This document shows positions 1 through 1,886 of a stretch of DNA of 6,184 nucleotides, piece by piece. This DNA is from a virus (taxonomy: Duplodnaviria; Heunggongvirae; Uroviricota; Caudoviricetes): the IMG/VR virus record IMGVR_UViG_2713896791_000023; one strand, 5' to 3'. The position numbers were made by a program, and so were the translations under genes. The notes beneath the pieces were generated by a model. It saw nothing but the letters and a program-made list of their open reading frames with translations, did no database searches and was not told where the DNA came from. Every line of letters starts with the position of its first letter. Positions within the stretch are counted from its first letter, which is position 1.

Positions 1-579
1 TTAGCCGTTAAGTTTAACTGCCAGACCTGCGACATATTCCCCTTGATAACGAGCAATAGACAGTTCTTCCTGGCTTGGCTGGCGTGAGCCGTCACCGCCT
101 GCGATGGTGGTTGCGCCGTACGGCGTACCGCCGCGAACCTGTGAAACGTCAAATAATTCCTGCGCTGCGTAGCCAATGGGGACAATTACCATGCCGTGAT
201 GCGCAAGGGTCGTCCAGGTTGAAGTAATAGTTTGTTCCTGACCGCCGCCAGTACCGGTGGAACTAAAGACGCTCGCCAGTTTTCCGTATAGTGCGCCGGA
301 AGCCCACAGGCCGCCCGTCTGGTCGAGGAAGGTACGCATTTGACCGGACATGTTGCCAAAGCGGGTAGGTGTACCAAAAATAATGGCGTCGTAATCGGCC
401 AGTTCTTGCGGGGTTGCAACCGGTGCAGTTTGCGTTTTACCGCCTGCTTTTTCAAATAATTGCGGCGGCATGGTTTCCGGTACACGCTTAACGACAACTT
501 CTGCGCCATCGACTTTGCTTGCACCCTCAGCGACTGCGCGTGCCATCGTTTCAACATGTCTAAGGATATGGTTTATCAT
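1..579 (-). CDS. wrbA: NAD(P)H:quinone oxidoreductase WrbA with its N-terminus replaced by prophage-derived codons (192 aa). Residues from about '[14 protein letters not shown]...' to the C-terminal '...GLAVKLNG' are native; the first ~9 residues 'MINHILRHV' replace the native start.
   Basis: Translation of the minus-strand ORF matches WrbA as I recall it along nearly its whole length, but the native N-terminus (remembered as [22 protein letters not shown]) is absent. The ATG at 579..577 overlaps the int stop TGA (578..576). Stop TAA at 3..1. Confidence 0.85.
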
Positions 580-1886
580 TTTGAAAAATATAATTTTATT
601 TCATCCTCCTGGTCACTTTGGGGCACGTCTGGGGCACGGGCATTAAGGACATTATTCAACATGGCAACTTGAGTCACGCTGCACTCAGGCATCCATGCAC
701 CATAAACATTGTAGACCATGCTGGCGCTGGAGTGCCCCATCTGTGATGCAATAAATGTCGGGTTTGCTCCGGAAGATAAAGCCCAGCACGCATAGGTATG
801 GCGTGACTGATACGCTTTACGGGATCGGATACCCGCTCTTTTTATTGCTGAATCCCATGTCGCTCCGATGGAGCTTACCGCGTAGTTAATACCCGCCTTG
901 TGATTCTTGCGAACGATTTGCGGACAGAAAACAAAAGTGCACTCGTGCAAAATTGTTCTTCCGTACTCGCGTAATTGAACAGTGATCTGATGCTGCCTGC
1001 TAAGACGAGTAAGCATCGCCTGGTTTTTAAGTGCTTCAATTGCTGGTGCCAGAAGATGTATAACCCGGTTAGTGCCTGCGTCGGTCTTTGGTAGCGTAAA
1101 ATCACCTATTTTTGTAAAATTTCGTCGCACTGTTATCGTGCCAGCTTTCAGGTCGATATCCTCCCATGCAAGTGCGGCAATTTCACCGTGTCGCATCCCT
1201 GTAAAAACAGCCACTGTCCAGAGGTTTTTGGTCTGTTGATGATGGCAGGCATCAATGAGACGGCTAAACTCATCTCTGGTCAGTGGATCCGGCACTGGTT
1301 TTGATTTCCTCAGCGGTGTTATTGAATTAAACGGGTTTTTCTCCAGATACCCGTTTTCGGCGGCAAAGCTGAACATTCCGGCTGTTGTTGTCATGTAATA
1401 GTTCACTGTGGGTACGGTTCTTCCTTTTCGGGACGTGCTGGTTTTCCTGCTTCCCTTTTCCCCGGTCAGTAAATCTTTCCTGATAAACAGCAGATCTTCT
1501 TTTGTAATCGATGACGCCAGCCTGCCAGGACCAAGCCTCGGTAGCATATTTTTCATCACTGATTGATAACGATTTAAGGCGTTACTACTGATTTCCATTA
1601 CTTTCAGAGTAAGCCATTTCTGTGCCAGTTCACCGACGGTGATATCTTTTTTTACCAGGCCAAATAGCTTCAGGTTAGGTGAGTCAGGGAATCGATCGGC
1701 ATAATCAAACGTTCCTGTTCTGATTGCAAAGCAGACCGAAGCCCTTAACTCACCAGCGATCTTTCTGTTTTTCGGTGTATCGGGCACGCGAAGATTTTCG
1801 CGCACTCGTTTACCCCTGTACTTAAACGTTATTCGGAGTTTTCCTCCGTGATTTTCAACGCCGGCTGGATAGGCTGAATTCGCCAT
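576..1886 (-). CDS. int: Phage tyrosine integrase (site-specific recombinase), 436 aa from ATG at 1886.
   Basis: Long minus-strand ORF. The C-terminal domain carries the tyrosine-recombinase signature (...TGMRHGE..., ...SRHTYACW...[15 protein letters not shown]...). I prefer the ATG at 1886..1884 because AGGAGG sits just upstream (plus 1891-1896); the ORF-track start at 1910 has no RBS. Stop TGA at 578..576. Confidence 0.9.
619..638 (+). promoter_or_regulatory. Candidate arm-type Int-binding sites: direct repeat TGGGGCACG x2 (619-627 and 630-638), 11 bp apart, about 70 bp from the predicted att junction.
   Basis: Two exact 9-bp direct repeats one helical turn apart, adjacent to the att junction and inside the codons for the int C-terminal tail (RAPDVPQ). 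This matches the arrangement of lambda P' arm sites. It is purely a sequence pattern with no functional evidence. Confidence 0.2.

What the first reader, a model, noticed from the sequence alone, without database searches (positions are those of the whole stretch)
530..580. Prophage inserted in wrbA re-caps the gene with a phage start codon overlapping the int stop
The wrbA reading frame is kept open across the attL junction. The native N-terminus is replaced by phage-encoded 'MINHILRHV', and the new ATG (579..577) overlaps the int TGA (578..576). The phage therefore supplies a start codon and possibly a promoter for a truncated WrbA. The lost N-terminal segment (remembered as KVLVLYYS) would be the first beta-strand of the flavodoxin-like fold, so the product is probably inactive. 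It could still be expressed, and excision would restore native wrbA.
Basis: partly seen in the sequence, partly recalled or inferred. Interest (0 to 1): 0.45.

Follow-up and report, generated by a model that had tools for sequence, protein, structure and literature searches.

The report
Prophage junction re-capping truncated wrbA
This is the well-known left junction of a Shiga-toxin-type prophage inserted in the E. coli wrbA gene; phage DNA gives the beheaded gene a new start codon and promoters, but the product lacks an essential part and is probably a by-product.

Summary
On the minus strand, a 192-aa ORF (579..1) begins with phage-derived MINHILRHV and continues as WrbA residues 16-198. Its ATG (579..577) overlaps the integrase TGA (578..576).

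The window is 100% identical to E. coli 2014C-3061. It is the attL end of a ~61-kb 933W/Sp5-type prophage. The 7-bp crossover core TTGAAAC lies at 554..548. In-silico excision rebuilds native wrbA with 0 of 597 mismatches.

The guessed promoter is supported by published data. Cappable-seq in EDL933, identical to the window over 512..1588, places a start site 121-122 nt upstream of the hybrid ATG (window 700/701). A TACAAT -10 box precedes it. A stronger integrase start site lies at 1908. RNA-seq of an MG1655 lysogen shows that wrbA reads are not lost.

The ATG looks incidental. In free phage it opens a 14-codon mini-ORF, and no Shine-Dalgarno sequence sits at working distance. The product lacks the first 12 positions of the 200-position NCBIfam WrbA model. 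Translation and inactivity remain untested.

RefSeq already annotates the ORF as wrbA, and 216 of 5,426 complete genomes carry this junction. It is already known and of modest interest.

The parts
1..579 (-). Hybrid wrbA' ORF of 192 aa (MINHILRHV + WrbA 16-198). RefSeq annotates it as wrbA, WP_000607018.1.
   Evidence: NCBIfam NF002999 scores 325.6 bits against a cutoff of 141, but only model positions 13-199 of 200 are matched. The exact protein occurs on >=1000 contigs.
1..547 (-). Host-derived part of wrbA, from the base after the core to the stop codon.
   Evidence: BLAST to uninterrupted wrbA loci covers window 1-560. Alignment and in-silico recombination.
548..554 (-). 7-bp core (overlap region) TTGAAAC, shared by attL, attR, attP and attB. 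An imperfect extension to 560 (GACATnTTGAAAC) probably holds a core-type Int binding half-site.
   Evidence: Annotated as the attachment site in AP000422 and AP004402. A 13-bp attL is annotated in KU298437.
555..579 (-). Phage-derived 25 nt that supply the ATG and 8 codons. In free phage the same ATG opens a 14-codon mini-[17 protein letters not shown].
   Evidence: Real attP of Stx2 converting phage I (L006) and the attP reconstructed from this genome.
576..1886 (-). Tyrosine integrase gene (436 aa from ATG 1886). The mechanical ORF from GTG 1910 starts at or upstream of the mapped start site and is unlikely to be used.
   Evidence: Pfam PF12167 arm-DNA-binding domain plus PF00589. PGAP CDS. 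Transcription start site at 1908.
617..636 (-). Two arm-type Int-binding repeats, TGCCCCARA (P arm of attP), inside the int 3' coding end.
   Evidence: 2 matches against 0.13 expected by chance. Three exact copies, plus a fourth TGCCCCAAT visible in the sequence, lie in the same orientation in the P' arm at attR.
700..701 (-). Transcription start site for the hybrid wrbA', 121-122 nt upstream of the ATG and inside int.
   Evidence: Cappable-seq in EDL933: positions 1333636/1333637, assigned to EDL933_RS06605. Called in 6 of 8 conditions. Mean read scores are 6-14 in exponential phase and 18-48 in stationary phase (PMC10469882 supplements). Coordinate mapping and sequence identity.
708..713 (-). 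-10 box TACAAT, preceded by TC (TCTACAAT, sigma-S-like). Its last base lies 7 nt before the start site at 701. No good -35 box.
   Evidence: Sequence read. The spacing to the experimental start site is my reading. The consensus scan did not flag it.
1908..1908 (-). Start site of the int promoter, active in all 8 conditions. Its transcripts can read through int into wrbA'.
   Evidence: EDL933 position 1334844, mean scores 47-241. No terminator-like site on the minus strand between 1908 and 1.
1939..2238 (-). Excisionase (xis) gene.
   Evidence: Pfam PF06806, 1.2e-30. PGAP 'excisionase family protein'.
2250..2267 (-). Terminator-like hairpin (AACCGCC-TTCG-GGCGGTT followed by a T-run) upstream of xis. 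It would separate xis-int from early-left transcription.
   Evidence: Consensus match only.

Best explanation
Positions 530-580 are the attL junction left by lambda-type site-specific integration of a 933W/Sp5-family prophage into codons 15-17 of wrbA.

**Shown.** Int recombined attP with attB within the 7-bp overlap TTGAAAC. This put the 3' end of int directly upstream of wrbA codons 16-198 and in the same orientation. The first 15 wrbA codons and the native promoter were sent about 61 kb away to attR.

**Shown.** The last 25 phage nucleotides happen to contain an ATG in the wrbA frame. In free phage this ATG only opens a 14-codon mini-ORF. The result is a 192-aa hybrid ORF whose ATG overlaps the int TGA.

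**Shown by published data on identical sequence.** The ORF is transcribed in lysogens from phage DNA. One start site lies inside int at window 700/701, behind a TACAAT -10 box, and is stronger in stationary phase. Read-through from the constitutive int promoter (start site at window 1908) probably adds to this.

**Inferred.** Translation, if any, would depend on the A/U-rich unstructured leader or on termination-reinitiation at ATGA, because no Shine-Dalgarno sequence lies at working distance. The product lacks the central beta1 strand, the FMN-phosphate loop and active-site Tyr12. It is therefore most likely unstable or inactive. On this reading the hybrid ORF is an incidental by-product, and wrbA is functionally knocked out until precise excision restores it.
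For: - **Identity of the locus.** 100% match to E. coli 2014C-3061, with yccJ-wrbA-int-xis annotated. 98.9-99.8% identity to VT2-Sakai, 933W-type and Stx1a phages.
- **Core and reconstitution.**: 0 of 597 nt differ after in-silico excision. attR encodes [20 protein letters not shown].
- **Mini-ORF in a real attP.**
- **Int/Xis domains and arm repeats.**
- **Start sites.** PMC10469882 supplements, mapped through. EDL933 is identical to the window over 512..1588.
- **RNA-seq (PMC6580645).** wrbA raw counts are 204/183/574 in MG1655 and 774/841/1371 in MG1655::phiO104, where the phage is in wrbA. The phiO104-type sequence is identical to the window over 548-772.
- **Loss of the N-terminal module.** NCBIfam positions 1-12 are absent. 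Flavodoxin N-terminal models hit native WrbA only. Pfam Flavodoxin_1 drops from 40.7 bits to 22.8 bits, below its 25-bit threshold.
- **Tyr12.** It is described as part of the catalytic pocket in PMC10302398.
- **Incidental nature.** Relatives of Int at 63-70% identity sit upstream of 5'-truncated yecE. Usually there is no phage ATG; only 1 of about 11 has one next to the int stop.
Against: - No Ribo-seq, proteomic or enzymatic data for the hybrid protein were found. Both 'translated' and 'inactive' remain inference.
- The RNA-seq counts are noisy, and a lysogen with intact wrbA also rose.
- Part of the wrbA-mapped signal could come from read-through rather than the 700/701 promoter. I had no coverage profile.
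- The start site fell below the calling threshold in 2 of 8 conditions.
- The -10 assignment is my reading of the sequence.
- The ATGA overlap is the classical translational-coupling arrangement. Some selected function therefore cannot be excluded.
Confidence: 0.75

Rival explanations
1. Adaptive re-capping. The phage has evolved the ATG, the ATGA overlap with int and the internal promoter so that a shortened WrbA, or at least the downstream operon, stays expressed. This would lower the cost of lysogeny, as phages that carry replacement gene ends do.
For: The ATGA overlap and same orientation as int. An experimentally mapped promoter just upstream, stronger in stationary phase as native wrbA is. 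Transcript levels not reduced in a lysogen. The junction is conserved in 216 complete genomes.
Against: - The phage segment is not homologous to the lost 15 codons. It cannot supply beta1 or the phosphate loop.
- In attP the ATG opens only a 14-codon ORF.
- No Shine-Dalgarno sequence sits at a working distance; AGGAGG lies 25 nt upstream of the ATG.
- yccJ has its own start site at window 4, so no rescue of the downstream gene is needed.
- The phages are >99% identical here, so conservation carries no information.
- One natural variant changes the leader peptide, R to S.
- yecE-targeting relatives mostly lack a phage ATG.
Confidence: 0.1
2. The hybrid ATG is not the start that is used. Translation, if any, begins at the internal Met (hybrid residue 12, native Met18) and gives a 181-aa fragment, or the region is transcribed but not translated at all.
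For: Some pipelines annotate a 181-aa MARAVAEG... protein, seen on 17 contigs. There is no Shine-Dalgarno sequence before ATG 579.
Against: The internal ATG has no Shine-Dalgarno sequence either. ATG 579 sits in an A/U-rich stretch that is in a loop in the predicted fold, and it is positioned for reinitiation after int termination.
Confidence: 0.15

Closest known systems
933W / VT2-Sakai (Sp5) Stx-phage integration in wrbA (GenBank AF125520, AP000422)
   Same: The int, xis, 7-bp attachment site and junction sequence are the same, at 99-100% identity over the junction. AP000422 already notes 'this CDS is divided by the insertion of prophage'.
   Different: The prophage here sits in a different strain (2014C-3061). 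It differs downstream of xis and is closest to Stx1a-converting phages. Nothing differs at the junction.
Phage lambda Int/Xis recombination (attP with arm sites and a 7-bp overlap)
   Same: A tyrosine integrase with an arm-binding domain, an adjacent excisionase, a 7-bp overlap, arm-type repeats on both sides of the core, and int transcribed towards att.
   Different: The target lies inside a coding gene rather than between genes. The arm sites overlap the int coding end. Int has a promoter that is active in lysogens.
Phages that carry a replacement end for their target gene (phage 21 and e14 at icd; tRNA-gene integrators). Named from my own knowledge of the literature.
   Same: The open reading frame stays open across the junction because of phage-borne sequence.
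   Different: Those phages duplicate the displaced 3' end so the product stays functional. Here a non-homologous 9-codon 5' cap replaces 15 codons that carry essential structure.
Active-lysogeny or regulatory-switch prophages (Listeria phi10403S in comK, B. subtilis SPbeta in spsM). Named from my own knowledge of the literature.
   Same: A host gene is split and precise excision restores it (in silico).
   Different: Nothing suggests that excision is used as a reversible switch here. These are inducible Stx-type lytic phages.

Membership tests
Lambda-type tyrosine-integrase attL junction | Tyrosine recombinase catalytic domain with an N-terminal arm-DNA-binding domain, encoded next to att | tested here: met
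   PF00589 (1.9e-17) and PF12167 (6.3e-26) in the ORF ending at 576.
Lambda-type tyrosine-integrase attL junction | Short identical core shared by attL, attR, attP and attB | tested here: met
   TTGAAAC is present in all four sites.
Lambda-type tyrosine-integrase attL junction | Arm-type repeats flanking the core | tested here: met
   TGCCCCARA occurs twice at 617-636, against 0.13 expected. Three exact copies plus a near-copy TGCCCCAAT lie in the P' arm. The repeat region is annotated in AP004402.
Lambda-type tyrosine-integrase attL junction | Recombination of attL with attR regenerates an intact attB | tested here: met
   In-silico excision gives wrbA with 0 of 597 differences from an uninterrupted locus. 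No wet-lab recombination was tested.
Functional WrbA (type IV NAD(P)H:quinone oxidoreductase) | Score above the equivalog HMM cutoff | tested here: met
   NF002999 scores 325.6 bits against 141. TIGR01755 scores 323 bits against 132.5.
Functional WrbA (type IV NAD(P)H:quinone oxidoreductase) | Complete flavodoxin-like fold, including strand beta1 and the beta1-alpha1 FMN-phosphate loop | tested here: not met
   Model positions 1-12 are unmatched. Native residues 1-15 are replaced by 9 unrelated residues. Flavodoxin N-terminal models hit native WrbA only, and Flavodoxin_1 falls below its gathering score. The role of beta1 and the loop rests on established knowledge of the fold.
Functional WrbA (type IV NAD(P)H:quinone oxidoreductase) | FMN binding, tetramer formation and quinone reductase activity | not testable with these tools
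   The single-sequence AlphaFold2 model was unusable, with mean pLDDT 35.
Phage-borne functional replacement of a target-gene end | The phage segment is homologous to the displaced gene segment | tested here: not met
   MINHILRHV against [15 protein letters not shown]. Only His and the core-derived codons coincide.
Translationally coupled overlapping gene pair (ATGA) | 4-nt stop/start overlap on one transcript | tested here: met
   ATGA at 579..576. The int start site is at 1908 and no terminator is predicted before wrbA'.
Translationally coupled overlapping gene pair (ATGA) | Shine-Dalgarno sequence 5-10 nt upstream of the downstream start, and demonstrated coupling | tested here: not met
   The nearest AGGAGG (610..605) lies 25 nt upstream of the ATG. 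Coupling itself cannot be tested here.
Active-lysogeny switch prophage | Regulated, non-lytic excision used to switch the host gene on | not tested
   Only the precise restorability of wrbA was shown.

The most novel reading that the evidence does not exclude
The hybrid WrbA' might be made in lysogens, driven by the stationary-phase-responsive promoter inside int and by int read-through. It might also have a selected role. One possibility is an FMN-free protein with a new activity. Another is that the wrbA' tail changes int mRNA fate: in attP, int transcripts run into a 21-bp hairpin in the P' arm, whereas in attL they run into wrbA', a lambda-sib-like contrast.
Probability: 0.1. Interest if true: 0.5.

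Novelty: already known. Interest (0 to 1): 0.25.

Why it matters
Practical value is mainly for annotation and interpretation. RefSeq names this beheaded ORF 'NAD(P)H:quinone oxidoreductase', with no pseudogene flag, in at least 216 complete E. coli genomes and on more than 1,000 contigs. Gene-content analyses therefore count wrbA as intact in many Shiga-toxin-producing strains, where it is almost certainly knocked out.

It also explains an oddity in a published start-site table. There the wrbA 5' UTR is listed as 121-122 nt in EDL933 against 50 nt in K-12. The EDL933 start site is in fact a phage promoter inside int.

It is a clean, data-backed example of a prophage taking over transcription of the host DNA next to it.

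Tried and rejected
- **Plunkett 1999.** The 933W sequence paper is not held in the library. I could not check whether its authors remarked on the hybrid ORF.
- **Literature searches.** Searches for any discussion of a truncated or re-capped wrbA found none.
- **Translation and protein evidence.** wrbA does not appear in the held supplements of two EDL933 Ribo-seq/proteomics papers. A 2D-gel WrbA spot was reported in strain 933D (stxII-). If, as I recall, that strain has lost 933W, the spot says nothing about the hybrid.
- **Comparative test for selection on the ATG.** The only diverged Int relatives (63-70% identity) are not next to wrbA; most of them sit upstream of truncated yecE. wrbA phages are >99% identical at the junction. 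No informative divergence exists.
- **Conservation of the -10 box.** Most relatives encode Phe-Asn rather than Tyr-Asn at that position. The result is uninformative.
- **Consensus promoter scan.** It found only chance-level hits and missed both experimentally mapped promoters. Its one minus-strand hit (616..587) has no start-site support.
- **5' UTR folding.** Unremarkable, z = -0.5.
- **Structure prediction.** The single-sequence AlphaFold2 model of the hybrid had mean pLDDT 35 and was unusable.

Full report
**1. The observation**

On the minus strand the window holds a 192-aa ORF (579..1) that begins [16 protein letters not shown]. Directly upstream lies a 436/444-aa ORF that ends at 576. 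The + strand reads TCAT at 576..579. On the minus strand this gives ATG at 579..577 and TGA at 578..576, an ATGA overlap.

**2. What the locus is**

Window 1-1000 is 100% identical to the chromosome of E. coli 2014C-3061. RefSeq annotates agp, yccJ, wrbA (579 nt, WP_000607018.1), a tyrosine integrase and an excisionase there. Window 1-2300 matches VT2-Sakai, an Stx2a phage inserted in wrbA and several Stx1a phages at 98.9-99.8%. Window 555-1000 matches 86 phage records at >=99%, including 933W at 100%.

Uninterrupted wrbA loci align only to window 1-560. The upstream ORFs carry an arm-DNA-binding domain plus the phage-integrase domain, and the DUF1233 excisionase domain.

**3. Anatomy of the junction**

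I aligned attL with a native wrbA locus and with the attR of the same genome. attR lies about 61.3 kb away (L005 13415). The alignment shows a 7-bp shared core, TTGAAAC, at window 554..548. GenBank records AP000422 and AP004402 annotate the same 7 bp as the attachment site.

Similarity between attP and attB continues imperfectly as GACATnTTGAAACnATG. This is typical of core-type binding sites around an overlap region, and it explains why His is retained before the junction.

Joining attR-left, the core and attL-right in silico gives a 597-nt wrbA with no differences from an uninterrupted locus. attR encodes only [20 protein letters not shown].

Two arm-type repeats, TGCCCCARA, lie at 617-636 inside the int 3' end, against 0.13 expected by chance. 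Three exact copies, plus a fourth reading TGCCCCAAT, lie in the same orientation in the P' arm.

**4. Is the start codon a phage 'design'?**

A real attP is available from Stx2 converting phage I, a circular phage genome. There the same ATG opens a 14-codon [17 protein letters not shown], which overlaps the int stop. The ATG is therefore not part of a substantial phage gene.

Only 25 nt (579..555) are phage-specific. They replace 15 native codons with 9 unrelated ones. A natural variant changes the leader peptide from R to S.

The nearest Shine-Dalgarno-like AGGAGG lies 25 nt upstream of the ATG. The 122-nt leader has no unusual structure, z = -0.5.

Diverged relatives of this Int (63-70% identity) were found in other enterobacteria. 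Most sit in the same way upstream of a 5'-truncated yecE, not wrbA. In about 10 of 11 such loci the first in-frame start is an internal GTG of yecE. Only one locus has a phage ATG next to the int stop.

An in-frame ATG before a stop is expected in roughly a quarter of random junctions. Together these points make an incidental origin the most economical reading.

**5. Is it expressed?**

Two public data sets apply directly.

(a) Cappable-seq in EDL933 (PMC10469882). EDL933 has the same 579-nt wrbA CDS, EDL933_RS06605, and is identical to the window over 512..1588.
- Start sites assigned to this gene lie at 1333637 and 1333636, which map to window 701 and 700. They are 122 and 121 nt upstream of the hybrid ATG, inside int.
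- They were called in 6 of 8 conditions. Mean read scores are 6-14 in exponential phase and 18-48 in stationary phase.
- The start site at 701 lies 7 nt after the last base of a TACAAT box at 713..708. The box is preceded by TC, which gives it a sigma-S-like flavour. This is my reading of the sequence.
- The int promoter start site (1334844, window 1908) is present in all 8 conditions with scores of 47-241. No terminator-like site lies between it and wrbA', so read-through is likely.
- yccJ has its own start site at window 4.

(b) RNA-seq of MG1655::phiO104 (PMC6580645). The phage was confirmed by PCR to sit in wrbA. Its sequence is identical to the window from 548 to 772.
- Raw wrbA counts are 774/841/1371 in the lysogen against 204/183/574 in MG1655, log2FC +0.93, not significant.
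- Reads were reverse-complemented before mapping and counted with READemption. I take this to mean a strand-specific protocol.
- Separating wrbA' from its native promoter by about 61 kb therefore does not silence it.

I found no evidence on translation.

**6. Is the product functional?**

The hybrid still scores 325.6 bits against the WrbA equivalog model, whose cutoff is 141. This is why PGAP names it wrbA. However, model positions 1-12 are unmatched.

Flavodoxin N-terminal models match native WrbA residues 1-49 but not the hybrid. Pfam Flavodoxin_1 drops from 40.7 to 22.8 bits, below its gathering score.

By established knowledge of the flavodoxin-like fold, the missing segment is the central beta1 strand plus the beta1-alpha1 loop that holds the FMN phosphate. 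Tyr12, reported as part of the catalytic pocket (PMC10302398), is also lost. WrbA works as a tetramer in which three subunits contribute to each active site (PMC3430622).

Inactivity is therefore a strong inference, but it has not been shown. A single-sequence AlphaFold2 model was useless, with mean pLDDT 35.

**7. Comparison with what is known, and novelty**

This is the classical Stx-phage insertion in wrbA. AP000422 already states that the CDS is divided by the prophage. RefSeq carries the hybrid ORF. The exact protein occurs on at least 1,000 contigs, and 216 of 5,426 complete E. coli genomes have this junction.

It works like lambda integration.

What may not have been spelled out before is that the start site listed for 'wrbA' in EDL933 is a phage promoter inside int. 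That is an interpretation of existing data, not a new kind of element.

**8. Verdict**

The feature is already known and most likely an incidental by-product that is transcribed. Whether it is translated is unknown, and the product is probably inactive. Interest is low to moderate.

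Noticed in passing
window 4796-4845 and 5476-5525: Two runs of exactly 50 N interrupt ORFs in the early-left region of the prophage (ead/Ea22-like and neighbouring genes). They look like masking of the supplied window rather than biology.
   Followed up: partly
window 1886-1910: The mechanical int ORF starts at GTG 1910, but the Cappable-seq start site in EDL933 maps to 1908. The real start is therefore ATG 1886 (436 aa), which has AGGAGG 5 nt upstream, as PGAP annotates. 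Int is transcribed in all 8 uninduced conditions, unlike the lambda paradigm.
   Followed up: partly
L005 13622-13668 (attR side, P' arm, outside the window): A 21-bp near-perfect hairpin lies about 205 nt past the core in the direction of int transcription (z = -4.8, 0 of 200 shuffles as stable) and has no T-run. Stx2 converting phage I keeps it, with one A-U to G-C compensatory change. It could be a lambda-sib-like RNase III site that is separated from int on integration.
   Followed up: partly
L005 13373-13435 and 13961-14578: At attR the native wrbA promoter now drives a 20-codon stub ([20 protein letters not shown]). It points into the prophage towards an antirepressor (Ant) gene about 540 nt downstream on the same strand. 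Host stationary-phase transcription might enter the prophage there.
   Followed up: no
L007-L011, L013-L016, L019 (int relatives): Integrases 67-70% identical to this one sit directly upstream of a 5'-truncated yecE (VEGNTTLYALPK...), another known Stx-phage site. The phage-side core CATGTTAAC resembles CATGTTGAAAC here. Related integrases thus hit the 5' ends of two unrelated genes in the same orientation.
   Followed up: partly
window 2250-2267 (minus strand): A strong terminator-like hairpin with a T-run lies just upstream of xis. This suggests xis-int is insulated from early-left transcription unless that transcription is antiterminated.
   Followed up: no
protein cluster of window 579..1: The 90%-identity cluster that holds the hybrid WrbA also holds the 436-aa integrases and is represented by one of them. 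This hints at an Int-WrbA' fusion sequence or a clustering artefact somewhere in the collection. A 181-aa MARAVAEG... annotation of the same remnant also exists.
   Followed up: no
window 2885-3274 (minus strand): A hypothetical ORF contains a perfect (QPV)x5 run encoded by a 9-nt tandem repeat. This is a likely hotspot for length variation.
   Followed up: no
window 4 (minus strand): The EDL933 Cappable-seq data place a yccJ start site inside the last codons of wrbA. yccJ expression therefore does not depend on wrbA transcription.
   Followed up: partly
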